64,000 nt of DNA from a bacterium (GCA_018672055.1 JABHGM010000001.1:264884-328883), one strand, 5' to 3'. Counted from the stretch's first letter, positions 5,783-41,661 are shown. Translations and numbers: made by a program. Notes: a model not told the origin generated them from the letters alone.

Positions 5783-5783
5783 T

Positions 5784-7421: not shown

Positions 7422-7423
7422 TT

Positions 7424-7750
7424 TTAAAAAAATATTATTTTAATAATCCAGACACACAAACCTAAAATACCAATTACAATAGCTGGGGTTCCCCAAACTA
7501 AATTTGCACTTGTTTGCATATCTAATGCTTTTTCTTGTGTTTTCTTTGTAGCTATGACTGGGACTATAAATAAAATATCAATTAATAATCCAAAACATGC
7601 ACCAAACAATGCAAAGCTTAAAATATTTTTATTTAAAGCTAATCCCCAAATGCCTATTGAGATTGTCCAATAAATTATAAAAGTAAAACCAACAGTAATT
7701 GCCATAGTTATTGCTTGGCTTCTTGTTATTAGTGTTTGATTTGTTTTCAT
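7424..7750 (-). CDS. small membrane protein (3 TM), co-oriented immediately upstream of the recombinase
   Basis: ORF track 108 aa; hydrophobic; 2-nt gap to recombinase start. Confidence 0.45.
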   Translation of the reverse strand: MKTNQTLITRSQAITMAITVGFTFIIYWTISIGIWGLALNKNILSFALFGACFGLLIDILFIVPVIATKKTQEKALDMQTSANLVWGTPAIVIGILGLCVWIIKIIFF

Positions 7751-7756
7751 ATGATA

Positions 7757-7906
7757 TTAATTAATTAATTTATTTAAGTCTTCTTCTTTTATCCTCCATT
7801 GCCCAATTTTAGTAGCTTTTAATTTACCGCTTTTAATATATCTATAAACAGATTTTTCAGATACTTTAAGTATTTTTGCTACTTCTTGTAATGTATATAA
7901 TTTCAT
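7757..7906 (-). CDS. excisionase-family / MerR-like HTH DNA-binding protein (candidate recombination directionality factor)
   Basis: Unlisted 48-aa ORF translated by hand: MKLYTLQEVAKILKVSEKSVYRYIKSGKLKATKIGQWRIKEEDLNKLIN; matches the excisionase-family HTH pattern (T..EVA..L.VS..TVYR.I..G.L.A.KIG..WRI...DL). Confidence 0.6.
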   Translation of the reverse strand: MKLYTLQEVAKILKVSEKSVYRYIKSGKLKATKIGQWRIKEEDLNKLIN

Positions 7907-7910
7907 GTTT

Positions 7911-8114
7911 CTATTTTTTTTTATCGGGTTTAACCCAAAAATAAATTAATAATATTCCTAAAAATATCCACCAGGTTATTTGAGCTAATTCTACTCTTGA
8001 TTCATACTCTGGTCTTTGCAAGCATCCTATCATTACTATTATAAAGATAAAAAACCAGGCTTTAAGGAGCCAACCAATTATTATTGCAAAAAATTTTCTA
8101 TCTATTTTTTTCAT
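7911..8114 (-). CDS. small membrane protein
   Basis: ORF track 67 aa; two hydrophobic helices. Confidence 0.4.
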   Translation of the reverse strand: MKKIDRKFFAIIIGWLLKAWFFIFIIVMIGCLQRPEYESRVELAQITWWIFLGILLIYFWVKPDKKK

Positions 8115-8158
8115 AAATTACTATTTTAGTATTTCATGCATGTCCAGTTTTGTCCAGT

Positions 8159-8482
8159 CTAGTTATCCACCTTCTTTAAGACTGAATATTTAGAAGCTTG
8201 TTTAAGTAAGGGACGCAAAATTATATATTTTGGAATGGAATAATAATCATTTACATTTACTAGTTTGAAAGCTGAATATACTTCATTTTTACAAAACGCC
8301 AAATTTAATTCCTCTAAGCAAACAATTATTGAATTTAATAATACTAAATCACTCCAACCTTTATATAGTTTTCTTTTTCTAAGTATATTGAATATTCTCC
8401 TAATACGGTATCTCTTTTTTCTAAACTTCTTTAAATCTTTTTTTAAGTATTCAAGTATACTTTCTATTTTTAACTCTAACAT
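8159..8482 (-). CDS. hypothetical basic protein
   Basis: ORF track 107 aa; Lys/Arg-rich N-terminus; direct-repeat motifs upstream (8517-8580). Confidence 0.4.
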   Translation of the reverse strand: MLELKIESILEYLKKDLKKFRKKRYRIRRIFNILRKRKLYKGWSDLVLLNSIIVCLEELNLAFCKNEVYSAFKLVNVNDYYSIPKYIILRPLLKQASKYSVLKKVDN

Positions 8483-8584
8483 ATGTTACTTTATTATTAT
8501 TATTTGTTATTAGATGATATAGGAATAAACTATATAGTTACATACATACATGTGACACTATATAGTAACCTAGTTACATATAGG

Positions 8585-8950
8585 CTAGAAAGGAATACTT
8601 TCTTCTTCTGTTTCATTATTTTCAATTTGGAATTTATTCTTATAATATTCTTTAGTAACCTTTTCGTATTCTTCAACAATTCTTTTTTGTAGTTGTTTCC
8701 ATATACCTTCATCATCTATTACTACTTGGGGTCTCCATTTACCATAAGCATATACGCATGGGGGAGTAATCCAGTATTTACTTCCATCTTCTGTTGGCTT
8801 GTCTAAACGAATTACACGATATCCCTTCAGTATGAGCTTTTTATAGGTACATATGACTCGAGCTAGCACCTTGCCCTCTTCCTTGATTTCTACGCCAATT
8901 TTGAATTGATTTATATCAATATTGGTGATGTTATTTTCTTCTTGCTTCAT
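8585..8950 (-). CDS. hypothetical protein
   Basis: ORF track 121 aa. Confidence 0.45.
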   Translation of the reverse strand: MKQEENNITNIDINQFKIGVEIKEEGKVLARVICTYKKLILKGYRVIRLDKPTEDGSKYWITPPCVYAYGKWRPQVVIDDEGIWKQLQKRIVEEYEKVTKEYYKNKFQIENNETEEESIPF

Positions 8951-9193
8951 TGTTTCTTTGATTAGTTTTTAAATTATGATAAATTATTGTTTCTATAAAC
9001 AAAATAAGTTGGTTTAAAGCATCACTTGCATCATCATAGCTAGGTTCATATCCAAAGTATGTTGAATGGAGTTTTTGGTATCCTTTAATTTGTTTTTCTG
9101 TTAGCATATTTTCATATTAACAAAAATAAAAAAGATTACGGGCGTAATCTTGTTAGTTCATACTATCTATGTATTATTTCATATTATTTCATA

Positions 9194-10135
9194 CTATTTC
9201 TTTTTTGGTTTTATGTCTCTTATAATTTTTTTCAAATCAATATTTTTAGTTTTATTAACTGTTACAGGATTGATTAATTTAATAGCATCTTTTGAACTAC
9301 TAGGGAAAAACCATTTTTTAAGTTCTTTCTTAAATCCTAAATCAGCTATTACTTTGGTTAAATCTTTTGTATAATCTTTTTCTTGCTTAGCGATTTCTTT
9401 CCTTCTAACCTTTTTATTTGCATGTTCGAAAATATATTCAAATGCTTGCTGATTTGGGCTATCGAAATTTGGTCTTGATAGTAAAATCCCATTTATTCTT
9501 ATTTCTTGATTTAACTCATCATAATCAACCTCAACCTTAAGAGATTCTTTATGTATGATACTGGAAATTTTTGCATTAAGTTTAGTATTTACGTCTTTTT
9601 TTTCGATTAACGATTTTATTTTTTCGAATAATAAATTCTTTGATTGTACTTGAAAGTCAACATTTATTTCATACAGTAATTCGTCTGTTGGTACTATCTT
9701 ATATTTTTTTACATTTTCTATAAGTGATTTCACGAGTATTTCAGTTTTAGCAGGATTAGCAATGCCAGACATTATTTTTTTTAGCTTTGATATTTTATTA
9801 CTTTTGCCACGGGATATTATTTTTTCTTCTGATAATTCTGTAAGAATAGAGTCAAATAAATTTCTATTAATCACAAATTGTGTATTGTTTATTCTAAAAA
9901 AGTTAGATAAGGAATGTCCTTTTACTATTCCAAGTTTATTAAGTGTAACTGACTTTGTAGGATAGTTGTCATTTATTTCATTAATTTTACTTAGTATATG
10001 ATGAATAGCTTCATCTTTAGATTTAGATGAGAAGTAAAATAAACCTCCTTGTTCAAGTATTTTAATATGTTGGTTAACAACATCCTCGTTCGCCTTAGTT
10101 TGTGTATTTTTATTTACCATACATATACTGTACAT
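9194..10135 (-). CDS. hypothetical protein (313 aa, Lys-rich)
   Basis: ORF track; terminator hairpin AAGATTACGGGCGTAATCTT just downstream on minus strand. Confidence 0.5.
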   Translation of the reverse strand: MYSICMVNKNTQTKANEDVVNQHIKILEQGGLFYFSSKSKDEAIHHILSKINEINDNYPTKSVTLNKLGIVKGHSLSNFFRINNTQFVINRNLFDSILTELSEEKIISRGKSNKISKLKKIMSGIANPAKTEILVKSLIENVKKYKIVPTDELLYEINVDFQVQSKNLLFEKIKSLIEKKDVNTKLNAKISSIIHKESLKVEVDYDELNQEIRINGILLSRPNFDSPNQQAFEYIFEHANKKVRRKEIAKQEKDYTKDLTKVIADLGFKKELKKWFFPSSSKDAIKLINPVTVNKTKNIDLKKIIRDIKPKKK

Positions 10136-10584
10136 TTTTGTCTTAATTTAGGCAATATGTACGCGTGCAAGTCTACTATCAAAAACAATATTATCATATT
10201 TTACTGGTTAAAATGTATGTGTATCAGATAAAATCATTAGTTTTTTATAACAATAAAACTAGACATAAGTGCTAATTTTAAGACAAAAGAGTTTAAAACT
10301 GCTGTAAAGTATAGACAAAATATTGGTATAGTGTTGTGACTATGTAGTACCTTACCATAGTGGAAATTAGGATGTGGTTCTACCCCCCCCCTCTAATTCA
10401 TTTATTTAAAGATTGCGAAATTTAATAGTTAATAGTAATATAAAATAGAAGACAAATTGACAAGATAATAAGACTACATGGCTTATTTGTCGAGTCCAAA
10501 GTATTTATCACAATAATGATTAGGGGGGGATTGATGAAAATCATATATTGTGTAATAATTTAATTTATTAAACTTATTAAAAAT

Positions 10585-11319
10585 ATGAGTGATTACACTA
10601 AAAATTTTTTAACAGACGTTATTTTTAAAGTAGATTTCCCAGTTATTTTAGATTTACAAGATAGTCCGCCAAAGGAGTTTCAAAATGCAATCAAAGAAGA
10701 ATACCCTATTTTAGAGCCGTTTCAACAATTTAGTTTTATGATGGATAAGGAGTCAGAAGAACCCCCTCAGAATCTTAACAGAACTATATGGAAGTTTATG
10801 TCAAAAGATAAAAATAGGTCTATTGAACTTAGCTATCAGTCTTTAATAATAGTTTTTAAAGATTATCAAAGTTATGAAGATTTTAGAGAAATCATAGAAA
10901 AGATAATGGCTATATTTAATGAATTATATAAGAATGTTATAGTAGATAGAATAGGCTTACGATACATTAATCAAATAGAGTTGGAAGAAGAAGATATTTT
11001 TAATTGGGGTGATTATATTAATGACTGTTTGATATCTAATATAGATTTCTTAGAAAACAAAAATCAGATTAAAAGAACCATAGACATATTGGAGCTATCT
11101 TTAGATGATGAAGTTACACTAAATTTCCGATGGGGAATATATAATAGTTTATATCCTAGTGAAGTATCAAAGAAAGAATTCCTTCTAGACTTTGATTGTT
11201 TTACTCGTGTACAGATTGAAAGTGACCAGGTTATTGGAAAATTAGATATTTTTAATAGTATCATAACAGGATATTTTGAGAAAAGCATAGAAGATAAGTT
11301 TAGAGAATTATTAAGATAA
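10585..11319 (+). CDS. uncharacterised protein, resembles the sporadically distributed TIGR04255 family (RIGLRYIN motif)
   Basis: 244 aa; motif ...VDRIGLRYINQIEL... recalled from TIGR04255-type proteins; first gene of a 3-gene co-directional module. Confidence 0.5.
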   Translation: MSDYTKNFLTDVIFKVDFPVILDLQDSPPKEFQNAIKEEYPILEPFQQFSFMMDKESEEPPQNLNRTIWKFMSKDKNRSIELSYQSLIIVFKDYQSYEDFREIIEKIMAIFNELYKNVIVDRIGLRYINQIELEEEDIFNWGDYINDCLISNIDFLENKNQIKRTIDILELSLDDEVTLNFRWGIYNSLYPSEVSKKEFLLDFDCFTRVQIESDQVIGKLDIFNSIITGYFEKSIEDKFRELLR

Positions 11320-11329
11320 TTAAAAAAAT

Positions 11330-11536
11330 ATGTTTAATGGAAATATAAAACTTTCGTCTGCAGAAGAACTTTCGGATTTATCAAAAATCGAAAAGACTGA
11401 ACCAAGCAAAAGAAACACCAATGAATCAAATGATAATGAACTCTCTAGAGATTATGATGTGGTAGGCAGGGAAGAACTAAAATACTATAAATCTAAATCA
11501 TTAAAAGCCAGCCGAATCGTTATAAAACTAGATTAG
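11330..11536 (+). CDS. small hypothetical protein
   Basis: ORF track 68 aa; 10-nt gap from upstream gene, 4-nt gap to downstream gene. Confidence 0.4.
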   Translation: MFNGNIKLSSAEELSDLSKIEKTEPSKRNTNESNDNELSRDYDVVGREELKYYKSKSLKASRIVIKLD

Positions 11537-11540
11537 TGTT

Positions 11541-12113
11541 ATGTTTATAAAGTCCAATAGCGAGAGAATATGTCAAGGGGATATTTTAGAAGATATTGAG
11601 TATTTGTCTCCTATAAGAAATAAAAATGATATTATAATAAATAAATTCATATTACCTTACATAGTAGTTTTGACTCAAGATTGCGATTTGAAGCAAGATT
11701 ATGGAACAAGAAACGATACCACTAGTCAAGATAATGATAAGTTTCTTAAATCATTATTAGTTTGTCCTGGTTATATAGCTAAACAAGTCAAACAAGGCAC
11801 ACATCTGGAAAGTCTGAATTTAAAAATGGGCTATTTAGGGAGTGATATCTGGAAGAGAGTAACTAGAAATGAAGACAAAAGGTATCATTACTTAGAAGGT
11901 AGGAAAAAAGTTGGCGAAGAATTAGTCGATATAGAAGATATAGTCTTAGATTTTAAGCATTATTATACTATACCTTGGGAAACTATGTATGAGCATCATA
12001 AAGATAAATATTTGATATCTTTAGATAAATTATATAGGGAAGATTTATCGCATCGTTTCTCACATTTTTTATCTAGAATTGGATTGCCTGATTTGAAGAC
12101 TAAAGATGAATAA
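11541..12113 (+). CDS. hypothetical protein, third gene of module (acidic motifs QGDIL...VLTQDCDL)
   Basis: ORF track 190 aa; no family recognised by eye. Confidence 0.45.
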   Translation: MFIKSNSERICQGDILEDIEYLSPIRNKNDIIINKFILPYIVVLTQDCDLKQDYGTRNDTTSQDNDKFLKSLLVCPGYIAKQVKQGTHLESLNLKMGYLGSDIWKRVTRNEDKRYHYLEGRKKVGEELVDIEDIVLDFKHYYTIPWETMYEHHKDKYLISLDKLYREDLSHRFSHFLSRIGLPDLKTKDE

Positions 12114-12328
12114 TGATAAAGAAGAAATCAGTAATTTTTTAAATATATGACATCAAAACTGTTTGCATATTTAGGATTAGGTATAATTGTTTATGTTATT
12201 GCTTGTTTTGTTACACAAACTTGGTTGGGCTTAGGCGGTTTTTTAGGAACTTTGTTTGTGGCAGGAATTATCTCTTTTCTTGTAGAAGAAACCGAGAAAA
12301 ATTAGATATTAAGTATTGCAACTAATCA

Positions 12329-12400
12329 ATTTAGTTCGAACATCCTCTACGAAGGGACCCCAAATTACCATCTATATTTATAGGTGGTTTTTTGATATAC
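12329..12400 (+). repeat. intergenic repeat unit R1 (core TTAGTTCGAACATCCTCTACGAAGGGACCCCA + hairpin type a + T-run)
   Basis: Seen directly; hairpin CCATCTATATTTATAGGTGG followed by TTTTTTGATATACT, 28 nt before start of next gene. Confidence 0.85.
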
Positions 12401-12427
12401 TTAATTTATATTATTAAATAAAAATTT

Positions 12428-13486
12428 ATGAAGAAAGTAATTATTTTTGTCTTAGCCTTAACTTTGTTATTAGGTAATTTTAGTTATGTTAAAGCGGAAG
12501 ACTTAGGTCAAAAATTAAAAGGTAGAATCCTTTTACAAGTAGAATCACGTGGTGAAGCTTGGTATGTTAATCCAGAGGATGGTACTAGAATGTATATGAA
12601 GGATGGTAATACAGCTTATTCAATGATGAGAAATTTAGGTCTAGGTATTACTAATGCTAATTTAGAGAAAATACCTATTGGTTTAGAAGAAAGATTTGAA
12701 GAATTGGATTCAGATAACGATGGTTTAAGTGATAAATTAGAAGAAGCTTTAGGTTCAGATAAATACGATACTGATACCGATAATGATGGATATTTGGACG
12801 GTGATGAGGTTAAAAATGGGTATGACGTATTAAGTAGTAACATCACTAAATTAAGTTATGATAATAATTTAGTGAATAACTTGAAAGGAAAAATACTCCT
12901 GCAGGTAGAATCACGTGGTGAAGCATGGTATGTTCACCCTGTTGATGGTAAAAGATATTATATGACAGATGGACCTGCTGCTTATCAAATAATGAGATAT
13001 TTGAGTTTAGGTATTACAAATAGCGATTTAAGAACAATAAGCTATAATAGAGAATATACTAATTGGTCAACATATTCTGACGAAAACTATAATTTTATAA
13101 TTAACTATCCTGAGGATTGGGAATTTTCAGAAATAGAGCTACATTACCAAGATAACTCAAGTCCATATATGATAGGTCTTAGACCTACTACCGTTGTCCA
13201 CGATTTTCAGTGGGGAGTTAATGTTTATGATAAAAATTATGTAGACATTCAAGAAGTAGCTGGCATGGGTGGAACTCAGTTTGAGGATAGAATAGTAAAA
13301 GAAAATGAGCTAATGGTTGGCGGTTTGCCAGCTTTAAGATACATTGTAACAACTGAAAGCATTCCAGATTGGTATTCTGAACAGATAGTTATTGAGGATG
13401 AGGATTATATATATACTATAGGTAATGGTGCTGTTGAAGATGATTTATTTACTGATTTTTATAATAGTTTTAGAATTCAGAAATAA
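12428..13486 (+). CDS. secreted protein with signal peptide, two copies of a ~55-aa internal repeat and Asp-rich Ca-binding-like linker
   Basis: MKKVIIFVLALTLLLGNFSYVKA signal; repeats KGRILLQVESRGEAWYVNPEDGTRMYMKDG... / KGKILLQVESRGEAWYVHPVDGKRYYMTDG...; DSDNDGLSD...DTDTDNDGYLDGDE. Confidence 0.6.
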   Translation: MKKVIIFVLALTLLLGNFSYVKAEDLGQKLKGRILLQVESRGEAWYVNPEDGTRMYMKDGNTAYSMMRNLGLGITNANLEKIPIGLEERFEELDSDNDGLSDKLEEALGSDKYDTDTDNDGYLDGDEVKNGYDVLSSNITKLSYDNNLVNNLKGKILLQVESRGEAWYVHPVDGKRYYMTDGPAAYQIMRYLSLGITNSDLRTISYNREYTNWSTYSDENYNFIINYPEDWEFSEIELHYQDNSSPYMIGLRPTTVVHDFQWGVNVYDKNYVDIQEVAGMGGTQFEDRIVKENELMVGGLPALRYIVTTESIPDWYSEQIVIEDEDYIYTIGNGAVEDDLFTDFYNSFRIQK

Positions 13487-13498
13487 TAACTCATCAAC

Positions 13499-13569
13499 TT
13501 AGTTCGAACATCGTCTACGAAGGGACCCCAAATTACCATCTATGTGTATAGGTGGTTTTTTGATATACT
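13499..13569 (+). repeat. intergenic repeat unit R2 (core with CATCGTC variant + hairpin type a)
   Basis: Seen directly; begins 12 nt after stop of upstream gene. Confidence 0.85.
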
Positions 13570-13597
13570 AAATACATATTATTAAACATTAAATTAT

Positions 13598-14131
13598 ATG
13601 AAAAAATCAGTTAAGTATTTATTAACATTTTTTGGCTTTTTATTAATAGTAGTTACCATTTTTTATTTATATGATATATTAAATGTTGACAACTATAAGG
13701 AGTTTACAAAAGAATTTCAACTAAAAAATTCTCCTTATAATAAATTATGTACAGAATTGAATAGAAAAGAATGTACTGATAATGAAAAATGCATTGTTTT
13801 TTCTACATCGAGTGATAAATATACCATGGATGTAGTATTTGATGGGTGTTATGGGTTAACTGATGAACAGATTGAAAAGCATAGAGAGAACAAGAAATTA
13901 TGTTCTACAGAAAATGGTAATTGGTTGGACTCTCGAGAATGTATCTGCAAAAATGATTCCATAAATAGCATGTACCAGATTTTTAGGGAAGGTTATGGTT
14001 GTATTGATTTTGATAAAGAATGTGAATTGGCTGGAGGAACTTGGTCTAAAAATAGTGCAATGTATTCGTCTAACCGAAACTGTATTTGCTCTAATGGAGA
14101 GCCATACTCTTATAAAACTAGGTGTGAATAA
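13598..14131 (+). CDS. secreted/membrane-anchored Cys-rich protein
   Basis: N-terminal hydrophobic anchor; 14 Cys in mature part (CTELNRKECTDNEKC...). Confidence 0.5.
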   Translation: MKKSVKYLLTFFGFLLIVVTIFYLYDILNVDNYKEFTKEFQLKNSPYNKLCTELNRKECTDNEKCIVFSTSSDKYTMDVVFDGCYGLTDEQIEKHRENKKLCSTENGNWLDSRECICKNDSINSMYQIFREGYGCIDFDKECELAGGTWSKNSAMYSSNRNCICSNGEPYSYKTRCE

Positions 14132-14183
14132 TTATATTGGTAATTTATTAAACTCTACTGATTATAACTCATAACTTATCAAC

Positions 14184-14250
14184 TTAGTTCGAACATCCTC
14201 TACGAAGGGACCCCACAGAAATCTCTCCTGAAATATGGAGGGATTTTTGT
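14184..14250 (+). repeat. intergenic repeat unit R3 (core + hairpin type b ATCTCTCCTGAAATATGGAGGGAT + T-run)
   Basis: Seen directly; followed by a second hairpin (AGCCTATTAAAATTATAGGCT) serving the convergent minus-strand gene. Confidence 0.85.
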
Positions 14251-14309
14251 ATAAAAAAGCCTATTAAAATTATAGGCTCTTTGTTTTAATAAATTTATTA
14301 TTTAACGAA

Positions 14310-15995
14310 TTAGTTAATTATTTCCATAAATTTAAAGAAGTTTTCAGATACAGGTCTTGAATAAAGAATTTCTTCATTTTCTAAATTTATAATTGAAGTA
14401 GTTCTACTACCGTCTAGTATTAAGTGGTCGTCATCAGTCCATGATAATGTAAACGATTCAGGTATAGTTGCAATATTTGATATTTCTGAAGTCTCTAAAT
14501 TAAAACTATATAAGTAATTTTGTTTTATATAGTATATTGAATCATCGTTTCTTGAGAAAATTGGTGATTTAATACTTGTACCATTGTCTAGTTCTTTATA
14601 ATTACTACCATCTATATCAGATATACTTAGATGATAATTATTATTATCTTTAAAAGTGAATATCACTTTGTCACCAGAAGATGAGAAGTTAACATCATAA
14701 AAACTCATGCCTCCTAAATTAAATGTTTCAGCAATGTTTTGTGAATTTTTTATATTGTCAGATATAATCCAAAGTCCTACGCCACTATAACCTCCATCAT
14801 TAGCCTTTGCTAAAGTGTTACCTATAGGGCTCCAGGTTACTGTTTTTAAACCATTACCCAATCTTAAATTAGTATATTCATTATTCTTAATATTAATAAC
14901 GCCTATGAATGAACCTTCATGTAGAGATTGACTAAAGCTAATATACTGGCTATCAGATGACCATTTTGGATGAAATAAATGATAAGCTTCTAAGTCTGTA
15001 ATTGACCAACTAGGCATTCCAGGATAATTATCATCTATTTTACTTATTATTGTTGTTGTATTTTTATTTAATAAATCGTAAATTTTTAGACCTTCTTGGT
15101 CAATAAAGGCTAAAGAATTATTGTCAGGAGATAAGGATATACTAGGTTTAGATTTTGTCCACCAACTACCACTTGATTCTGCTTTCTTAAATTCATTATA
15201 TTCTAAAATTATTTCTTGAGAATCAGTTTGTAGACTTTTTTTATATACAGTTACAGTGAAGTCTTTTTTTGTTGCGTATAATAAATTGTTTTTTTCTAGC
15301 GAAACATTACTTTTAGATTCTTGGTCAGATAGATTAATTATCCAATCAGAACTTAATGTTTCTTGATTTCCAAGAAATCGGAAGGTTGAAGCTGTTTGTT
15401 TAAATAGATCGAAATCAAAATTATTATCTTCTAGATTTAATCTAATACCTCTATATTTTGTATCTTTTGATTTTGGTTCAAAATATGCCAGTGTGCTAAT
15501 TACTGTCTCATCTTGAGTATATATCTCATTTGGAGTATAAGTTCTTTTACATTTTGATATATAGCCTAGTGTTGTATTATTATCAACTAATTTCTCAAAT
15601 AAAATATTTGTACCTCCTACCATACCACCTGATAAGCATTCGTTATGAATGTAATCTTCAAGAGATTGTTTTGAGGTTTCAATTGGTGCTGTAGTACCTA
15701 TATGAAATAAAGTGTTATTATCACCTTCTATTTTATTCATAAAGTGTGTACCACCATCGATGCCAGTATCAACATAAAACCATTCAGTAGGATAATCAAT
15801 TTGGAAATTATATTTATAATTTATGTAAGTTTTCAAGTTTTCATCAATTACCTTATTTTCAGATGATTTATTATCTGATTGTTCGGTATGAGTTATTTCA
15901 TTATTTTGATTAGTAATCTCTTCTTTAGATTGTTTTAGAATACAACCAGTTGAGATTATGACTATTACAATTAAGATAATAATAATTTTTTTCAT
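14310..15995 (-). CDS. lipoprotein with TolB-like/PD40 beta-propeller repeats
   Basis: Lipobox ...ISTGC; repeated W-S-x-D/N motifs (WSSDSQYISF, WSPIGNTLA, SPDNNSLAF) typical of beta-propeller blades. Confidence 0.55.
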   Translation of the reverse strand: MKKIIIILIVIVIISTGCILKQSKEEITNQNNEITHTEQSDNKSSENKVIDENLKTYINYKYNFQIDYPTEWFYVDTGIDGGTHFMNKIEGDNNTLFHIGTTAPIETSKQSLEDYIHNECLSGGMVGGTNILFEKLVDNNTTLGYISKCKRTYTPNEIYTQDETVISTLAYFEPKSKDTKYRGIRLNLEDNNFDFDLFKQTASTFRFLGNQETLSSDWIINLSDQESKSNVSLEKNNLLYATKKDFTVTVYKKSLQTDSQEIILEYNEFKKAESSGSWWTKSKPSISLSPDNNSLAFIDQEGLKIYDLLNKNTTTIISKIDDNYPGMPSWSITDLEAYHLFHPKWSSDSQYISFSQSLHEGSFIGVINIKNNEYTNLRLGNGLKTVTWSPIGNTLAKANDGGYSGVGLWIISDNIKNSQNIAETFNLGGMSFYDVNFSSSGDKVIFTFKDNNNYHLSISDIDGSNYKELDNGTSIKSPIFSRNDDSIYYIKQNYLYSFNLETSEISNIATIPESFTLSWTDDDHLILDGSRTTSIINLENEEILYSRPVSENFFKFMEIIN

Positions 15996-16050
15996 ATGTT
16001 TAGTATAAATATTAAGCTCTCTTTGCTTCGAACTTAGCAGATTAATTAAG

Positions 16051-16157
16051 TTTTGTCAATCCTAGCTCATATTGTATTAACTTAGTTCGAACATCGTCTA
16101 CGAAGGGACCCCAAATTACCATCTATGTATATAGGTGGTTTTTTGATATACTTAAAT
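16051..16157 (+). repeat. intergenic repeat unit R4 (TTTTGTCAAT -35-like box + core + hairpin type a)
   Basis: Seen directly; upstream part TTTTGTCAATCCTAGCTCATATTGTATTAAC aligns with R7. Confidence 0.85.
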
Positions 16158-16173
16158 TAATTATTAATAAAAT

Positions 16174-16593
16174 ATGGATAATCTAAAAACAATATTAAAG
16201 AATTATATAATCTCCTATTTATTTTTTTATATTCTTACTCTTATTATAATTTATTTTTATTTATTTTCTGTATTTTCAGATGTTATACCAGAAATGGATT
16301 TTTCAAGTTATATGATGTTCAATCTACTTGGGGGCATTATAGCAGTAACAGTATATATTTTAATTCATTCATTATTATCGATAAAATTTAAAGATATTTT
16401 CGATATGAAGAAAAATATATTACTTGTTTTAGTTCCCGTAATTGCATATCAGATTGTTGAGAATTATAATTTTAAATGGTTTAATCTTGATTTGCCTTTG
16501 CATTATTATTACTACATAAATTATGCAATGTGGTGCATAGTTTTTCTCATTCTTTATAATTTTGTTAAAAATAAAGTTATTATAAAGATATAA
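16174..16593 (+). CDS. membrane protein (4 TM)
   Basis: ORF track 139 aa, strongly hydrophobic. Confidence 0.45.
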   Translation: MDNLKTILKNYIISYLFFYILTLIIIYFYLFSVFSDVIPEMDFSSYMMFNLLGGIIAVTVYILIHSLLSIKFKDIFDMKKNILLVLVPVIAYQIVENYNFKWFNLDLPLHYYYYINYAMWCIVFLILYNFVKNKVIIKI

Positions 16594-16621
16594 AAATATC
16601 TAGAACAACATCAGAAAATCT

Positions 16622-16840
16622 ATGAAAAAGATAAAAAATATTAATATTTCCTGGGAACTTCTACTAATAATAAACCTTTTGTTTATTATTAGTATAATCT
16701 TTTTTATAGGAGAAGCTACTACTTATTTTAATAAAAGGACTTATTATACAATAGCCCAAGTAATACAATTAGGCTCTTTTTTCTCAACAATATTATTTTT
16801 ATATTTTTTCAATAAATATTTTAGAAAAAAAATTAAATAA
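16622..16840 (+). CDS. small membrane protein
   Basis: ORF track 72 aa. Confidence 0.4.
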   Translation: MKKIKNINISWELLLIINLLFIISIIFFIGEATTYFNKRTYYTIAQVIQLGSFFSTILFLYFFNKYFRKKIK

Positions 16841-16860
16841 TTCAACAATTTCAATATCAA

Positions 16861-16927
16861 TGGTTCTGAACTCATCCCGTAGGGGACCCCACAAAGACAT
16901 CTTCCTTAATTGGGAGGTGTTTTTTTT
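16861..16927 (+). repeat. intergenic repeat unit R5 (diverged core TCTGAACTCATCCCGTAGGGGACCCCA + hairpin + T8)
   Basis: Seen directly; homologous but diverged from the R1 core. Confidence 0.7.
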
Positions 16928-16986
16928 GTGTATGGTTGACATAAACAATAATAAAGTATAAAATACTTTTTTATTTAATTAAAATT

Positions 16987-18438
16987 ATGTCTGAAGAAGT
17001 AATATTAAGATTTAACAAAGTTGATTTTGAATATGAGCATAAAAAACCGATTTTACATCAGGCTAGCTTTAGTATTCGTCAGGGAGCTAAATTTACTTTA
17101 ATGGGTCAAAATGGAGCTGGTAAAAGTACTATCTTTAGTTTAATTAAAGGCAAACTTAAAGCCGATAGTGGTATGATTTCAGTGACAGGCAATGCTTCTA
17201 TTGGTATAGCTAATCAAGTAATAAGTCGTGCTGATTATCCTTTAACTTTGGAAGAGTATTTTGCCAAAGCTTTTAATTCAATACCTGGTGATTTAAAGAG
17301 TAGGATTGCTAAAGTAATGGATGCTGTTAATTTAGAAATACCTTTCGAAAGAATAATTGGAGAATTATCTGGCGGACAACAAGCTAGAATTTTGTTAGCT
17401 TACGCTTTAATTCAGAATCCAGATGTTTTATTACTGGATGAACCAACAAATAATTTAGACAGAGCTGGCATAGATCATTTAATTGGTTTCTTATTAAGTT
17501 ACTCTAAGACAGTCTTAGTAATTTCACACGATGCTGACTTTTTAAACTTATTTACAGAAGGAGTTATTTATTTAAATAATTTTAATCATGAAACTGAAAT
17601 GTATGTTGGAGATTACTACTCAGTAGTAGATGAAATTAAGGCTAGAGTTGATAGAGAAGAAAAACTTAATGCACAATTAGAGAAGAAAATCCGTGATCGT
17701 AAAGATAAGGTAAACTTCTTTGCTAATAAAGGTGGTAAAATGAGGCAGCTTGCTAAGAAGTTAAAAGAAGAAACTAAGGTAATGGAAGAAAACAAAGTTG
17801 AGGTTAGAAAAGAAGATAAGGTCATTAGAAATTTTAATATACCTGCACAAGATATTACTGGCACTATTGTTAATTTAACAAAGATAAAAATTATAGCAGA
17901 TCATCAACCTATTATAAAAAAGGTAGATATTGAATTAAAGAGAAGAAGTAGAATGTTAATAGTTGGTCCTAATGGTATTGGCAAGAGTACATTATTACGC
18001 AATCTATTAGCTCAAAAAGAAGATGGGTTAATTATCTCTCCTGATGTTGTTGTTGGCTATTACAGTCAAGATTTTGCATCATTAGATTTTGATCAAAAGG
18101 TTTTTGATTCTTTAAAAGAAGCTAGTTTAAATTCTACTGATGAGCAAGTTATTCGTTCTGTTGCAGCAAAGTTTTTACTAACCAGTGATTTAATGGATAA
18201 GCTAATTTCTGCTTTATCAGAAGGACAAAAAGGTTTACTTTCTTTAGCTAGATTAGTATTGATGAAACCCGGCCTATTGATTTTAGATGAACCAACTAAT
18301 CATATTAACTTCAGACATTTACCAATAATAATTGAAGCTTTAAATAGCTATGATGGAGCTTTGATGATGGTTAGTCATATGCCAGAGTTTGTAGAGAAGA
18401 TTGAATTTAATCAACAACTAGATTTAAGTAAGCTTTAA
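16987..18438 (+). CDS. ABC-F family ATPase (tandem ABC domains, no transmembrane domain)
   Basis: Two Walker A (GQNGAGKST, GPNGIGKST), two signature motifs (LSGGQQ, LSEGQKG), Walker B LLLDEPTN/LILDEPTN, charged inter-domain linker. Confidence 0.85.
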   Translation: MSEEVILRFNKVDFEYEHKKPILHQASFSIRQGAKFTLMGQNGAGKSTIFSLIKGKLKADSGMISVTGNASIGIANQVISRADYPLTLEEYFAKAFNSIPGDLKSRIAKVMDAVNLEIPFERIIGELSGGQQARILLAYALIQNPDVLLLDEPTNNLDRAGIDHLIGFLLSYSKTVLVISHDADFLNLFTEGVIYLNNFNHETEMYVGDYYSVVDEIKARVDREEKLNAQLEKKIRDRKDKVNFFANKGGKMRQLAKKLKEETKVMEENKVEVRKEDKVIRNFNIPAQDITGTIVNLTKIKIIADHQPIIKKVDIELKRRSRMLIVGPNGIGKSTLLRNLLAQKEDGLIISPDVVVGYYSQDFASLDFDQKVFDSLKEASLNSTDEQVIRSVAAKFLLTSDLMDKLISALSEGQKGLLSLARLVLMKPGLLILDEPTNHINFRHLPIIIEALNSYDGALMMVSHMPEFVEKIEFNQQLDLSKL

Positions 18439-18525
18439 AAGTTTTATTATAAATTTTTATAGCCTTTATTTTATCCTTAACATTAGTCATATATTCTCTA
18501 TCAGATAGAATAGTTATAATATCAT

Positions 18526-18578
18526 TCTGACACTCACCCCAACAGAAATCTCTCCTGAAATATGGAGGGATTTTTTTA
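18526..18578 (+). repeat. intergenic repeat unit R6 (CTGACACTCACCCCA variant + hairpin type b)
   Basis: Seen directly; followed by GGGGCAGACTATTGTCTGCCCC hairpin for the convergent gene. Confidence 0.75.
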
Positions 18579-18629
18579 TATAAAAAAGGGGGCAGACTAT
18601 TGTCTGCCCCATTGAATATAACTTTGTTG

Positions 18630-19163
18630 TTATTTTAGAGGAATTTCGATTTCCATAGCTTTGATAATACTCGAACATCGTTTATAGTATGGATCTTTTT
18701 TTTCGAATTCTTCTAATTTCTTTTTCATTGCTTCTGTAGCATTGAGTTTTTTGAGAATCAATCCTATTATACCGTAATTCCAGAAATAATTTTTCATAAA
18801 CATTTCAGGAATTATTTCGATAAGATGGTCAGAGATTTTTTGATTCCATTCATCAGAAAGCTGAATGCATTCTTCATTTAATAGGAAGATAATAGTTTTG
18901 TGATGCCACTCTTGATAAGTTTTTTTTTCAAGTGAGCTACAGAAATTACTATATACTCCAGTTAAATAATTAAAGATTATTTCTCCAATATCTTTATTGA
19001 AGAAATAAATCTGTGCGGTAATGAAATTTCCGAAGTGGATAGTATCATTAATGGTGTATGAGTGGGATTCTTCTTGAGAAGAACAGTCAATCCAGTTGTT
19101 GGTAATAACCCATTTACCTTCCATCATTTTTTTGAGTAAATCTTCTATTTTATCATGATTCAT
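18630..19163 (-). CDS. hypothetical protein
   Basis: ORF track 177 aa. Confidence 0.5.
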   Translation of the reverse strand: MNHDKIEDLLKKMMEGKWVITNNWIDCSSQEESHSYTINDTIHFGNFITAQIYFFNKDIGEIIFNYLTGVYSNFCSSLEKKTYQEWHHKTIIFLLNEECIQLSDEWNQKISDHLIEIIPEMFMKNYFWNYGIIGLILKKLNATEAMKKKLEEFEKKDPYYKRCSSIIKAMEIEIPLK

Positions 19164-19243
19164 AATGCCCTCTTTCTTTTTTTGTTGAATTTTATTATGT
19201 TAAAGAACAGATTATAATACCTCATATTAACTATTTTGTCAAC

Positions 19244-19330
19244 CCTATCTCATAATGTATCAATTTAGTTCGAACATCGTCTACGAAGGGACTCCACAGA
19301 AATCTCTCCTGAAATATGGAGGGATTTTTG
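19244..19330 (+). repeat. intergenic repeat unit R7 (TTTTGTCAAC box + core + hairpin type b)
   Basis: Seen directly. Confidence 0.85.
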
Positions 19331-19379
19331 TATAAAAAAGCCCACGAAAATTTTGTGGGCTTGTTAGTGATGTCACATA

Positions 19380-19622
19380 TTATTTTTTAATAATTTTTGC
19401 GTTTTTGAAATTTATTCTCTTCAATAGACCATTTCTTTCGTATACAATCATGCTTCCAATATTTTGCAGCTCTTCTTCAGGGAGTCCAGGGAATTTACAG
19501 ATAAATCTGTTAAATCCTGGATTTTGGATCCTGCTAATTACTTCAATTATTTTACCATCATTAAGTAAGATATTGTATTTTTTTGGGTCCATTGATTCCC
19601 ATTGTTTTTCAGTGATACTCAT
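19380..19622 (-). CDS. hypothetical small protein
   Basis: ORF track 80 aa; terminator AAAAAGCCCACGAAAATTTTGTGGGCTT downstream on minus strand. Confidence 0.45.
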   Translation of the reverse strand: MSITEKQWESMDPKKYNILLNDGKIIEVISRIQNPGFNRFICKFPGLPEEELQNIGSMIVYERNGLLKRINFKNAKIIKK

Positions 19623-19698
19623 TTGAGCATCCTTTCATTTATGCGTTATTAATTTGTTATTGTTTTTACGTAATATGCAATAATAGTATATTTATACT

Positions 19699-19835
19699 AT
19701 TTTGTCAATCATAGCTTAAAATCTTCTCATATTCCTTCCAAATATCTTTGAATGTATTACATAGGAAGATTTTAATAAAGTTACGACTGCCACCCCATCA
19801 AAAAATCATTCCATCAGGGATGGTTTTTTGTTATA
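19699..19835 (+). repeat. intergenic repeat unit R8 (TTTTGTCAAT box + second-family core ...TTTTAATAAAGTTACGACTGCCACCCCA + short hairpin + T6)
   Basis: Seen directly; same subfamily as R10. Confidence 0.8.
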
Positions 19836-19864
19836 CTGAAAGTGTAATAATTAATAGAAAAATT

Positions 19865-20383
19865 ATGAAAAAAGTAATAATAATATTTATCTTATTAATT
19901 ACTGTGGTTGCTATTTATTTATTGATGAATAATGATTCTGATCAAAATGAATTAGTTAATGATAAACGAGAAAATGGTATGGTAGTAAGTAATGTAGTTG
20001 ACGCCATGCCTGAAGAATTTAAAGCTAATTTTGAAGATGATATTCTTACAGATTCTGACACAGAAGTAGCTAGTCTAGTAGCAGTTGATAGTAGTGAGTC
20101 ATCAGGCACAGCATATCGTTTAGTTAAAGATGGCAAATTATATCATAGAGTAGTAGCAGATTTACCAGATTTGATGGACAATAATAAGTATGAAGGATGG
20201 TTAGTACAAAAAAGTCCATTAAAGTTTTTTTCAACAGGAGTAATGGAAAAAATTGAAGATGGTAAGTGGTTTTTAGAATATCAAGCAAATAACGAATATC
20301 CAACATATTTAACTATAGTAATTACTTTAGAAACTATTGTTGATACTACTCCAGAGAAACATATTATTGAAGGGGATTTTTAG
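19865..20383 (+). CDS. secreted hypothetical protein (signal peptide MKKVIIIFILLITVVAIYLL)
   Basis: ORF 19748..20383 shortened to ATG 19865: the upstream 39 codons run through repeat unit R8 and its hairpin. Confidence 0.5.
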   Translation: MKKVIIIFILLITVVAIYLLMNNDSDQNELVNDKRENGMVVSNVVDAMPEEFKANFEDDILTDSDTEVASLVAVDSSESSGTAYRLVKDGKLYHRVVADLPDLMDNNKYEGWLVQKSPLKFFSTGVMEKIEDGKWFLEYQANNEYPTYLTIVITLETIVDTTPEKHIIEGDF

Positions 20384-20390
20384 AGATCAA

Positions 20391-20457
20391 CCTAGTTCGA
20401 ACATCCTCTACGAAGGGGCCCCCAACAAAAAACAAGGTTATTAAGCCTCGTTTTTTG
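20391..20457 (+). repeat. intergenic repeat unit R9 (core CTAGTTCGAACATCCTCTACGAAGGGGCCCCCA + A/T-stem hairpin)
   Basis: Seen directly; begins 8 nt after stop of upstream gene. Confidence 0.8.
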
Positions 20458-20478
20458 ATTATCTAGATTTAAATTAAA

Positions 20479-20676
20479 TTAAGCTCTAGTAACATTGATT
20501 GCGTTTAATCCTTTGTCAGATTCTTCAGTATCAAAAGTGACAGTATCACCTTCTTGAAGTTCATTATATTGAACATCAACTAAAGAGTTGCTGTGAAAGA
20601 AAATGCCTTTTTCTTGACCTTCAGCGGCAATAAAGCCAAAGTTTTTATCAGTCAATTTTTCAATTTTTCCATTCAT
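20479..20676 (-). CDS. cold-shock protein (CspA family)
   Basis: 65 aa; KLTDKNFGFIAAEGQEKGIFFHSNSL... matches the CSD RNP1/RNP2 pattern. Confidence 0.85.
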   Translation of the reverse strand: MNGKIEKLTDKNFGFIAAEGQEKGIFFHSNSLVDVQYNELQEGDTVTFDTEESDKGLNAINVTRA

Positions 20677-20782
20677 TGATTTGATTGTTATTTATTTAGA
20701 TGTGTAAATTTGATAGAATTAAAATTCGACTATGTTTTTAAAAATATTTTCTACGAGAGAATCATATCATATTATAATAAAT

Positions 20783-20912
20783 ATGTCAACCCTAAATAAT
20801 AACCTTCATATACTGTTTCCAAACATCTCTGAATATACTATTTAAGAAAATTTTAATAAAGTTACGACTGCCACCCCACAGAAATCTCTCCTGAAATATG
20901 GAGGGATTTTTT
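20783..20912 (+). repeat. intergenic repeat unit R10 (ATATGTCAAC box + second-family core + hairpin type b)
   Basis: Seen directly; followed by ACACCCAGTTTAGTAATACTGGGTGT hairpin for the convergent gene. Confidence 0.8.
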
Positions 20913-20965
20913 GTAAAAAAATACACCCAGTTTAGTAATACTGGGTGTATACTTTATTTAGTTTA

Positions 20966-30476: not shown

Positions 30477-30538
30477 AAAAAGGTTAGTTAGACTAACCTT
30501 TTCAGTTAAGAAATATTAAGGAATTATTATTCCTTATT

Positions 30539-41613: not shown

Positions 41614-41661
41614 GGGGGAGGCCTTTCCCCCTTTCTTTACCTATTATTAAATTATATATAT

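What the first reader, a model, noticed from the sequence alone, without database searches (positions are those of the whole stretch)
12329..20912. Repeat-delimited cassette-like array: ten unrelated ORFs on both strands, each separated by a conserved ~32-nt core plus terminator hairpin
A conserved core occurs at 12329, 13499, 14184, 16082, 19265 and 20393. The common sequence is TTAGTTCGAACATC[C/G]TCTACGAAGG, with a variable tail GGACCCCA / GGACTCCA / GGGCCCCCA; the full TTAGTTCGAACATC[C/G]TCTACGAAGGGACCCCA form is in R1-R4 only. A diverged copy sits at 16861. A second related core, ...GTTACGACTGCCACCCCA or ...CTGACACTCACCCCA, occurs at 18526, 19783 and 20866. Every copy is in the same orientation on the + strand. 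Every copy lies in intergenic DNA. Each is followed directly by one of two interchangeable hairpin+T-run modules. Type a is CCATCTAT..ATAGGTGG-T6; type b is ATCTCTCC-TGAAATA-TGGAGGGAT-T5. The genes between copies are unrelated cargo-like ORFs in mixed orientation. They are a secreted repeat protein, a Cys-rich secreted protein, a beta-propeller lipoprotein, membrane proteins, an ABC-F ATPase, a cold-shock protein and several hypotheticals. The core starts only 8-12 nt after the stop codon of the preceding + strand gene. This is not a CRISPR array, because the spacing is irregular and contains ORFs. It is not a canonical integron either: no GTTRRRY core is present and gene orientation is mixed. 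The whole array lies inside an island bounded by a serine recombinase at tRNA-His. The pattern suggests a locus that accretes or shuffles genes by recombination at the repeats. It could be a new kind of cassette system or a local burst of a miniature mobile element.
Basis: seen in the sequence. Interest (0 to 1): 0.85.

Follow-up and report, generated by a model that had tools for sequence, protein, structure and literature searches.

The report
Serine-integrase attachment-site array at tRNA-His
The repeats are the element-side halves of attachment sites left by mobile elements that a large serine integrase inserted one after another at the end of a tRNA-His gene in a tiny-genome (CPR) bacterium, so the "cassette array" is a record of serial gene capture by a known kind of recombination in an unusual place.

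Summary
A ~38-nt core (6 near-identical copies, 1 diverged copy, 3 shorter relatives) lies only at 12.3-20.9 kb, always on the + strand and always followed by a terminator hairpin.

The core is not a new recombination site. It is a stretched mimic of the 3' half of the tRNA-His gene at 5785-5858: the T-loop RGTTY motif sits 5 nt further from the ...ACCCCA end. A 524-aa large serine recombinase (LSR) gene reads into that tRNA, and its 6.5-kb element (with an excisionase-like gene) ends at the first core copy.

All four homologous LSRs found next to a tRNA sit against tRNA-His. One 10.3-kb element ends in a homologous core plus terminator, and another locus shows two elements in tandem. The +5-nt offset matches the known attP versus attB half-site difference of serine integrases.

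Best reading: the cores are attR-type junctions (element P arm + former tRNA-His terminator) piled up by serial integration, as in SCC composite islands or tandem islands at tRNA genes. Still open are how the nine integrase-less 0.5-1.9-kb units arose and whether they still move. All long contigs examined have the same order. Verdict: new variant of a known kind.

The parts
5708..5782 (+). tRNA-Arg(tct), 2 nt upstream of tRNA-His
   Evidence: ARAGORN and Rfam RF00005
5785..5858 (+). tRNA-His(gtg), with G-1 at 5784 and an encoded C73-CCA. Its 3' end is the B (bacterial) half of the attachment site; the attL junction lies in or next to ACCCCA (5853-5858).
   Evidence: The LSR ORF overlaps it by 12 nt.
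5847..7421 (-). Large serine recombinase, 524 aa (Resolvase + Recombinase + Zn-ribbon domains). It reads into the tRNA-His 3' end.
   Evidence: Pfam. Closest solved structure is the A118/LI integrase, 4KIS. Homologues sit against tRNA-His in L007, L030/31 and L036/37.
7757..7906 (-). 49-aa HTH_17 excisionase-like gene, a candidate recombination directionality factor
   Evidence: Gene table; PHROG excisionase families, E = 7e-12
5859..12362 (.). Resident 6.5-kb LSR integrative element: P' arm with terminator 5859-5900, LSR, xis-like gene and ten small ORFs of unknown function. It ends at core copy R1.
   Evidence: No core-like site lies inside it.
12325..12394 (+). R1: type-1 core (P arm, 12325-12362) + type a terminator hairpin (12367-12388) + T run. 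Presumed attR of the resident LSR element.
12428..13486 (+). Unit A cargo: 352-aa secreted protein with TSP3 repeats
13493..13562 (+). R2: type-1 core + type a terminator
13598..14131 (+). Unit B cargo: 177-aa Cys-rich secreted protein, no family match
14178..14250 (+). R3: type-1 core + type b terminator
14310..15995 (-). Unit C cargo: 561-aa lipoprotein-like orphan. Its only homologue (32% identity) lies beside an LSR at tRNA-Pro in another organism.
16076..16145 (+). R4: type-1 core + type a terminator
16174..16840 (+). Unit D cargo: two small membrane-protein ORFs (139 aa and 72 aa)
16856..16930 (+). Diverged core P1' (16856-16891) + terminator. This is the copy most like the tRNA-His 3' half.
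   Evidence: 0 of 5000 shuffles reach its alignment score
16987..18438 (+). Unit E cargo: ABC-F type ATPase, 483 aa, with its own consensus promoter at 16936-16964
18521..18580 (+). Short core P3 (ATCATTCTGACACTCACCCCA) + type b terminator
18630..19163 (-). Unit F cargo: 177-aa protein of unknown function; promoter at 19242-19214
19259..19332 (+). R5: type-1 core (tail GGGACTCCA) + type b terminator
19380..19622 (-). Unit G cargo: 80-aa protein of unknown function; promoter at 19708-19680
19774..19833 (+). Short core P2 (AATAAAGTTACGACTGCCACCCCA) + terminator c. The terminator is homologous to a hairpin in relative L004.
19865..20383 (+). Unit H cargo: ~172-aa membrane-anchored protein
20386..20457 (+). 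R6: type-1 core (tail GGGGCCCCCA) + terminator d
20479..20676 (-). Unit I cargo: cold-shock-domain protein, 65 aa; promoter at 20789-20761
20855..20915 (+). Short core P2 (second copy) + type b terminator. This is the last copy and the right edge of the array.
4963..5667 (+). Degenerate XerC/D-like tyrosine recombinase gene (no catalytic Tyr). It is a conserved neighbour of the tRNA pair and probably not part of the system.

Best explanation
The array is a composite island built by serial site-specific integration at the 3' end of tRNA-His.

**The recombinase.** A clade of large serine recombinases (LSRs) widespread in Patescibacteria uses the tRNA-His 3' end as the B half of its attB site.

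**What each repeat is.** Each repeat is an attR-type junction with two parts.
- The ~38-nt core is the element-encoded P half-site. It mimics the tRNA-His 3' half, with the T-loop-like AGTTC motif placed 5 nt further from the crossover.
- The hairpin and T run to its right are whatever sequence followed tRNA-His when that integration happened. That sequence is always an intrinsic terminator, because the tRNA gene needs one.

**Order of events.** The newest insertion, the 6.5-kb LSR + excisionase-like element at 5859-12362, lies next to the tRNA. Older units have been pushed to the right.

**What is shown**
- The anatomy of the array.
- The LSR/tRNA-His association across genera.
- A homologous P arm at the far end of a related element.
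- Tandem elements in a relative.
- The +5-nt offset.

**What is inferred**
- The LSR catalyses these junctions.
- The crossover lies in GG or ACCCCA.
- The nine integrase-less units are cargo left behind or captured. One route is excision of the LSR module between attL and a proximal attR. Another is mobilisation in trans, as with recombinase-less pseudo-SCC elements.
For: 1. **Position and orientation.** All 10 copies lie downstream of tRNA-His in its orientation and nowhere else in 64 kb.
2. **LSR and its element.** The LSR ORF (Resolvase/Recombinase/Zn-ribbon) overlaps the tRNA-His 3' end by 12 nt. Its element carries an excisionase-like gene and ends at R1.
3. **Resemblance to the tRNA.** With ACCCCA held fixed, only 2 of 5000 shuffles reach the alignment score of the core against the tRNA-His 3' half, and 0 of 5000 for the 16861 copy.
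4. **The offset.** RGTTY starts 25 nt from the 3' end in all six tRNA-His genes compared. It starts at 30 nt in P1, P1' and the L030 P arm, and at 31 nt in the L004, L006 and L025 P arms. Rutherford et al. 2013 (PMC3783163) show that the zinc-ribbon-domain motif of the LI/A118 integrase (TTTAGTATC) is shifted 5 bp between attP and attB. That integrase is the closest solved relative of this LSR. The core contains TTTAGTTCG.
5. **Homologous LSRs.** LSRs of roughly 55-60% identity abut tRNA-His in three other genomic contexts. In L030, 10.3 kb from the tRNA, the far end reads CTCAGTTCCGATACGTTCTACTATGCCACCCCA + terminator, matching the core at 21 of 33 positions.
6. **Tandem elements.** In L025 a 77%-identical LSR has the same P' arm (TGAGGAAAGAATAGG) joined to a P-type arm, and a second mobile element lies between it and tRNA-His.
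7. **Arrays without an LSR.** L004 and L006 show 2 P-type arms each. Both in L006 and one in L004 are followed by the tRNA-His terminator block; in L006 the identity runs 73-77 nt at 92-93%.
8. **Cargo link.** The only homologue of a cargo protein lies beside an LSR at tRNA-Pro.
9. **Precedent.** Tandem integrative-element arrays and ccr-less units in SCC composite islands are documented (PMC7192596; PMC7029136).
Against: - Orthodox serine integrases recombine only attP x attB. After one integration the tRNA carries attL, so repeated integration needs a relaxed partner choice (as reported for Ccr, from my own knowledge), excision/re-integration cycles, or internal attR sites. None of these is shown here.
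- The right arms (hairpins a and b) show no convincing inverted copy of the P-arm motif. I could not establish the dyad symmetry of a reconstructed attP, and different assumptions place the centre 5-6 nt apart.
- Six cores are nearly identical while the cargo is unrelated and no unit retains any LSR remnant. Simple decay of full elements does not explain this.
- Hairpin b occurs four times and hairpin a three times, which plain 'one flank per event' does not predict.
- No excised circle, empty site or strain polymorphism was seen.
- The short cores P2 and P3 are not significantly tRNA-like on their own.
Confidence: 0.62

Rival explanations
1. Classical partial-tRNA island. Each core is a displaced, once-functional 3' half of tRNA-His, left by elements (for example with tyrosine integrases) that crossed over inside the tRNA and supplied a replacement half. 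The copies then decayed.
For: - The cores resemble the tRNA-His 3' half from about position 40 to CCA.
- Each core is contiguous with a terminator, as a native tRNA 3' flank would be.
- Tycheposon islands show exactly such partial tRNAs.
- A Xer-like gene is a conserved neighbour.
Against: - The core is 5-7 nt too long and cannot form a T arm or pair with the tRNA 5' acceptor strand.
- Six copies share the same 'defects', so independent decay is excluded.
- The same stretched frame is conserved in P arms of different genera, whose own tRNA-His sequences differ.
- The Xer orthologue is housekeeping-like in relatives and degenerate here.
Confidence: 0.12
2. A locally homogenised regulatory module. 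A terminator-promoter 'insulator' derived from the tRNA-His 3' flank was copied between genes by duplication, homologous recombination or gene conversion, without any site-specific recombinase.
For: - The 107-110-nt repeat units include a terminator, and for type a also the promoter/5'UTR of the next gene (D1 and D2).
- In L006 the shared block is 73-77 nt long, enough for homologous recombination.
- No polymorphism was seen.
Against: - This does not explain the conserved non-tRNA P arm shared with the far end of LSR elements in other genera.
- It does not explain why copies occur only downstream of tRNA-His.
- It does not explain why some terminators sit where no + strand transcript arrives (R4, R5, 19783, 20866).
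Confidence: 0.09
3. A miniature non-autonomous transposable element (MITE/REP-like) that burst locally into intergenic DNA.
For: Short, highly similar copies in intergenic DNA that contain a hairpin.
Against: - All copies are in one orientation.
- There are no terminal inverted repeats or target-site duplications.
- There are no copies in the other 55 kb of the window.
- Homologous sites in relatives occur only downstream of tRNA-His.
- The exact core is absent from the genome and viral collections.
Confidence: 0.04
4. A structured RNA element (a tRNA-like 3' end, sRNA or 3'UTR signal) that acts at the RNA level.
For: Every copy ends in CCA followed by a terminator, like a tRNA 3' end.
Against: - No Rfam family matches, even at E = 10.
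- The core has no stable or shared fold; only the terminator folds.
- Several copies lie where no upstream + strand gene or promoter is evident.
Confidence: 0.04

Closest known systems
Staphylococcal cassette chromosome (SCC) composite islands at orfX/rlmH
   Same: - Large serine recombinases insert elements at the 3' end of a conserved gene without inactivating it.
- Successive elements pile up in tandem.
- Each unit is demarcated by a short repeat related to the target's 3' end.
- Several units (pseudo-SCC, ACME, the ars operon) lack a recombinase (PMC7029136).
   Different: - The target here is a tRNA gene.
- The host is a CPR bacterium.
- The LSR is a single gene, at most ~28% identical to phage serine integrases in the collection searched, rather than ccrAB/ccrC.
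- The units are far smaller (0.5-1.9 kb, mostly one gene with its own promoter and terminator).
- The repeat is a 38-nt stretched tRNA mimic followed by a terminator, not an 18-bp direct repeat.
Tandem integrative-element arrays and partial-tRNA islands (TIGER/Islander arrays; tycheposon islands of Prochlorococcus)
   Same: - Islands next to a tRNA grow by repeated integration.
- New arrivals push old ones inward.
- att-derived tRNA-like repeats are scattered through the island.
- Remnants without an integrase occur.
   Different: - Those systems mostly use tyrosine integrases and true partial tRNA copies.
- Serine integrases were described as 'not known for targeting tRNA genes' (PMC7192596).
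- Here the repeats are not true tRNA fragments but P-type half-sites offset by 5 nt.
Serine-integrase attP/attB architecture (Listeria A118/LI integrase, Bxb1, phiC31)
   Same: - The domain set is the same (Resolvase, Recombinase, Zn ribbon).
- A118/LI is the closest solved structure.
- The half-site motif resembles the LI ZD motif (TTTAGTTCG against TTTAGTATC).
- The distal motif is 5 nt further out in the P arm than in the B arm, as in the LI model.
   Different: - The crossover dinucleotide and the P'/B' half-sites could not be defined.
- The apparent half-sites are longer than the LI ones.
- No biochemical data exist.
Integron cassette arrays
   Same: An ordered array of mostly single-gene units next to a recombinase, with one recombination-site-like repeat between neighbouring units and the newest unit expected next to the anchor site.
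   Different: - There is no IntI-type tyrosine recombinase.
- There is no attC (R''-L''-L'-R', GTTRRRY).
- The cassettes carry their own promoters and terminators and lie in both orientations.
- The anchor is a tRNA gene.

Membership tests
Large-serine-recombinase integrative element (attL/attR junctions) | Recombinase with an N-terminal resolvase catalytic domain plus Recombinase and zinc-ribbon domains | tested here: met
   Pfam PF00239, PF07508 and PF13408 on 5847-7421; matches the A118 integrase 4KIS at E = 1.8e-11
Large-serine-recombinase integrative element (attL/attR junctions) | Integrase gene at one end of the element, next to the att junction, with the same target used by homologues | tested here: met
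   The ORF end overlaps tRNA-His in the window, L007, L030/31 and L036/37
Large-serine-recombinase integrative element (attL/attR junctions) | attP half-site carries the distal (ZD) motif ~5 bp further from the crossover than the attB half-site | tested here: met
   RGTTY starts at nt 30-31 from the end in seven P arms, against nt 25 in six tRNA-His genes. The rule is from PMC3783163. That this motif is the ZD motif is an inference.
Large-serine-recombinase integrative element (attL/attR junctions) | attL and attR share the central crossover dinucleotide; attP and attB are imperfect dyads | tested here: inconclusive
   attL and R1 share only GG and ACCCCA, so the crossover must lie there. The motif TTTAGTTC in P against TTTAGTCC in rc(P') suggests a centre at GGG|ACCCCA, but LI-like geometry puts it elsewhere. 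The L007 sites do form a clear dyad centred in an 11-nt direct repeat.
Large-serine-recombinase integrative element (attL/attR junctions) | Recombination directionality factor present and excision products detectable | not testable with these tools
   A 49-aa excisionase-like HTH gene is present. No read data were available and no circular junction was found.
SCC-like composite island | Several units in tandem at the 3' end of one conserved gene, each bounded by an att-derived repeat, some without a recombinase | tested here: met
   Ten repeat-bounded units lie downstream of tRNA-His, and only the first has an LSR.
SCC-like composite island | Units differ between strains; individual or joint excision by the recombinase | tested here: not met
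   In three look-ups the 24 longest contigs read each time show one arrangement. Excision was not testable.
Integron | IntI tyrosine recombinase, attI, and attC sites with R''/L''/L'/R' boxes (GTTRRRY) | tested here: not met
   The only tyrosine recombinase is a degenerate XerC/D orthologue. The cores have no attC-like imperfect palindrome; the only fold is the terminator.
REP/MITE-type dispersed repeat | Many dispersed copies in both orientations, with terminal inverted repeats and/or target-site duplications | tested here: not met
   One orientation and one 8.6-kb region. None was found in the other 55 kb, and the exact core is absent from other genomes.
Known structured RNA (Rfam), including tRNA | Match to a covariance model, or a conserved fold | tested here: not met
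   cmscan found nothing at gathering threshold or at E <= 10, and ARAGORN found nothing in the array. The cores have no stable fold.

The most novel reading that the evidence does not exclude
The integrase-less units may be true gene cassettes. Each would be a 0.5-1.9-kb unit with its own terminator and promoter at the left end and a P-type half-site at the right end. A tRNA-His-specific serine integrase would capture them in trans, and could release them, at the tRNA 3' end. That would make this a serine-recombinase analogue of the integron in CPR bacteria, which have very small genomes.
Probability: 0.25. Interest if true: 0.8.

Novelty: new variant of a known kind. Interest (0 to 1): 0.55.

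Why it matters
CPR/Patescibacteria have very small genomes, and little is known about how they gain genes.

- This locus and its relatives point to a large, CPR-wide clade of serine integrases: more than 3000 homologues at E <= 1e-20, with the named top hits mostly from Patescibacteria.
- The clade uses the 3' end of tRNA-His as a landing pad. Serine integrases were 'not known for' this target class (PMC7192596).
- The window shows that the pad can accumulate at least ten units of orphan secreted and membrane proteins.
- The P arm is a 5-nt-stretched copy of the tRNA end. That gives a natural, sequence-readable illustration of the attP/attB half-site rule.
- The same feature offers ready-made att pairs for testing new integrases.

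If the small units prove mobile, this would be an integron-like capture platform run by a serine recombinase.

Tried and rejected
- **Known RNA families.** Rfam at gathering threshold and at E <= 10 found nothing in the array.
- **Folding.** Folding of all ten copies shows only the terminators fold; the core has no shared structure.
- **Exact core elsewhere.** The core was absent from genome contigs and viral contigs. In metagenome contigs the only hit was a 2.3-kb fragment of the same organism.
- **Relatives' element.** A scan of genome contigs for ATATCGAWAAGCCAYCCCA gave one real locus (L020, two copies). The other ten single matches look like chance (my estimate was about 17 chance hits) and were not inspected. 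The element family diverges too fast for exact-pattern searches.
- **LSR in viral contigs.** No relatives were found.
- **Xer as the cassette recombinase.** Rejected. It is a conserved housekeeping-like XerC/D orthologue in relatives, and in the window it is truncated before the catalytic Tyr.
- **Crossover position.** I tried to fix it from dyad symmetry. Different assumptions (the TTTAGT motif pair, LI geometry, the analogy with L007) give centres 5-6 nt apart. Only the constraint 'within GG or ACCCCA' is safe.
- **Inverted motif in the right arms.** I looked for an inverted P-arm motif in hairpins a and b. Nothing was convincing, because the AT-rich loops give easy chance matches.
- **Open reading frame through the core.** A predicted excised circle extends the LSR by 14-20 aa through cores R1-R5 (7 aa through R6), and the C/G polymorphism becomes Glu/Asp. 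I set this aside because homologues show that anything may follow the conserved ...WG end.
- **Strain variation.** Three look-ups of proteins encoded in the window gave only the same arrangement.
- **Profile of P arms.** The profile found no further copies in any fetched locus beyond those used to build it.

Full report
**1.

- The pattern TTAGTTCGAACATCSTCTACGAAGG occurs six times (12331, 13499, 14184, 16082, 19265, 20392). All copies are on the + strand, and no match is expected in shuffled sequence.
- In register the conserved unit is ~38 nt: ATCAAY-TTAGTTCGAACATCSTCTACGAAGGGACCCCA (D3).
- A diverged copy lies at 16856-16891. Three shorter copies end in (G)CCACCCCA or CTCACCCCA, at 18521-18541, 19780-19797 and 20861-20878.
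- Every copy is followed within 1-5 nt by a hairpin and T run that scores as an intrinsic terminator.
- In a scan of the whole window, the only + strand terminators preceded within 12 nt by CCCCA/CTCCA are 9 of the 10 copies and the genuine tRNA-His gene. The hairpin after R6 shows up in folding and in the - strand scan.
- A regular-expression scan and a profile HMM of the cores find no further copy in the other 55 kb.

**2. Setting**

- The window is a ~29% G+C bacterial chromosome carrying PNPase, GyrA, class II RNR, UvrD and YchF.
- The best PNPase matches (74% identity) are Candidatus Komeilibacteria / Patescibacteria MAGs.
- tRNA-Arg(tct) and tRNA-His(gtg) lie at 5708-5858.
- A 524-aa large serine recombinase (LSR) gene on the - strand ends inside the tRNA-His acceptor 3' strand, with a 12-nt overlap.
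- Behind it come a 49-aa excisionase-like gene and ten small ORFs of unknown function. The first core copy, R1, follows at 12325.

**3. What the core is**

- The core is a stretched copy of the tRNA-His 3' half.
  - tRNA: ATCGAGGGTTCAACTCCCTCTAGGCACCCCA
  - Core: ATCAAYTTAGTTCGAACATCSTCTACGAAGGGACCCCA
  - 16861 copy: ATCAATGGTTCTGAACTCATCCCGTAGGGGACCCCA
- With the final ACCCCA held fixed, only 2 of 5000 shuffles reach the alignment score of the core, and 0 of 5000 that of the 16861 copy.
- The core cannot be a functional or merely decayed tRNA half. It is 5-7 nt too long, has no T-arm pairing, and six copies share the same differences.
- The T-loop motif RGTTY starts 25 nt from the 3' end in all six tRNA-His genes compared. 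It starts at 30 nt in the core, the 16861 copy and the L030 site, and at 31 nt in the sites of L004, L006 and L025.
- This matches the serine-integrase rule. In the LI/A118 integrase system the zinc-ribbon-domain motif (5'-TTTAGTATC) is shifted 5 bp toward the centre in attB relative to attP, and minimal attB sites are about 10 bp shorter than attP sites (PMC3783163).
- A118/LI integrase is the closest solved relative of the window's LSR. The core contains TTTAGTTCG.

**4. Relatives tie the core to the LSR**

- All four homologous LSRs found next to a tRNA sit with their 3' end in tRNA-His, in different chromosomal neighbourhoods: the window, L007, L030/31 and L036/37. L025 is the exception described below.
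- In L030 the element is 10.3 kb long. Its far end reads CTCAGTTCCGATACGTTCTACTATGCCACCCCA followed by a terminator. This matches the window core at 21 of 33 positions, although L030's own tRNA-His differs in that stretch. The core is therefore element-encoded: it is the P arm of attR.
- In L007 a 4.3-kb LSR element is flanked by the 11-nt direct repeat CCCCAGTTATG. The reconstructed attP is a dyad (AGCCAAG...26 nt...CTTTGGCT) centred in that repeat.
- In L025 a 77%-identical LSR has the same P' arm as the window (TGAGGAAAGAATAGG). There it is joined to a P-type arm rather than to the tRNA. A second mobile element (another LSR, an M78/HTH_3 pair and an AAA_25 protein) lies between it and tRNA-His. 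This is tandem accretion seen directly.
- L004 and L006 have no LSR nearby but carry two P-type arms each (AAAGTTTGCT....ATATCGAWAAGCCAYCCCA). Both in L006 and one in L004 are followed by the tRNA-His terminator block; in L006 it is 73-77 nt at 92-93% identity to the block after the real tRNA.
- The window's short cores and one of its hairpins are homologous to these.
- The only homologue of the 561-aa cargo protein lies beside a frameshifted LSR at tRNA-Pro in another organism.

**5. Mechanism**

- Integration places the element's P' arm after the tRNA, forming attL. It moves the former tRNA flank to the far end behind the P arm, forming attR.
- Every flank that ever followed tRNA-His had to terminate its transcription. 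This explains why each core is followed by a terminator, including copies where no + strand gene reads into it (R4, R5, 19783, 20866).
- Reading rightward from the tRNA, the array is then a stack of attR-type junctions with the newest element (LSR + xis-like gene) next to the tRNA.
- Tandem arrays formed this way are well known (PMC7192596; the tycheposon preprint).
- The closest analogue is the SCC composite island. There, serine recombinases stack elements at the 3' end of orfX, each bounded by an att-derived repeat, and several lack recombinase genes (PMC7029136).

**6. What remains unexplained**

- Orthodox serine integrases do not use attL as a target, so repeated insertion needs one of three things:
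  - relaxed site choice;
  - cycles in which the LSR module excises with a proximal attR and leaves the distal units behind;
  - elements that already carry internal attR sites.
- The nine units are 0.5-1.9 kb, have no LSR remnant, and fall into families. Units A, B and D share the left end (hairpin a + promoter). Units C, F, G and the unit after the last copy start with hairpin b.
- This looks like cassettes with conserved ends rather than decayed full elements.
- I could not define the crossover beyond 'within GG or ACCCCA'. I also could not find a convincing inverted half-site in the right arms.
- All long contigs of this organism show the same order. The array may therefore be a fossil.

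**7. Rivals**

- True displaced tRNA halves fail on the shared +5-nt frame.
- A MITE/REP burst fails on orientation, location and the lack of inverted ends.
- A structured RNA fails on Rfam and folding.
- An integron-like system run by the neighbouring Xer fails because that gene is a degenerate housekeeping orthologue.
- Spread of a terminator-promoter module by homologous recombination alone cannot explain the P arm shared with LSR element ends in other genera.

**8. Verdict**

The system is a serine-integrase att-site array, a new variant of a known kind.
- It is notable for four things: the tRNA target, the CPR host, the stretched-tRNA P arm, and the unusually small gene-sized units.
- No paper in the searchable library links large serine recombinases with tRNA-His.

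Noticed in passing
window 41008-41155 (+): An AdoCbl (B12) riboswitch (74.6 bits) lies directly after the class II B12-dependent ribonucleotide reductase gene (38142-41006). It precedes a small ORF and a prenyltransferase-like/DUF4430 protein (41248-43440), possibly a B12 uptake or binding module.
   Followed up: no
L004 6932-7381, L005 900-1361, L006 6012-6287 (relatives); window 5783-5784: In three relatives the ~0.5-kb spacer between tRNA-Arg(tct) and tRNA-His holds a free-standing homing-endonuclease ORF, each of a different family (LAGLIDADG, HNH, GIY-YIG). In the window the two tRNAs are only 2 nt apart.
   Followed up: partly
window 4963-5667 (+): The XerC/D-like tyrosine recombinase is conserved upstream of the tRNA pair in all four relatives whose Xer was aligned. 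In the window it is degenerate: it has an 18-aa internal deletion and ends at LRH, without the catalytic tyrosine.
   Followed up: yes
window 5847-5858 and homologues P0123-P0165: LSRs of this clade end in ...WG, encoded by TGGGGT, the complement of the tRNA-His ACCCCA. The tail after WG depends on what lies across the junction. It is the antisense of the tRNA ('GYRELNP') in several database proteins, and 14-20 extra residues through core copies R1-R5 (7 through R6) in a predicted excised circle. Integration therefore changes the C-terminus of the integrase.
   Followed up: partly
L038 1123-4233: A 32%-identical homologue of the window's 561-aa cargo protein lies next to a frameshifted LSR whose end overlaps tRNA-Pro(ggg). 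Related LSR elements may also use other tRNA genes.
   Followed up: partly
window 30470-31824: A second local family of intergenic repeats (64-75 nt, 72-83% identity, containing hairpins) lies among three small - strand genes at 30539-32219 (D10, D14, D16).
   Followed up: no
L036 10001-15592: The contig carries two mirror-image copies of an LSR element plus a tRNA-Arg/Lys/His cluster. This is probably an assembly artefact, because the sister contig L037 has a single copy.
   Followed up: no
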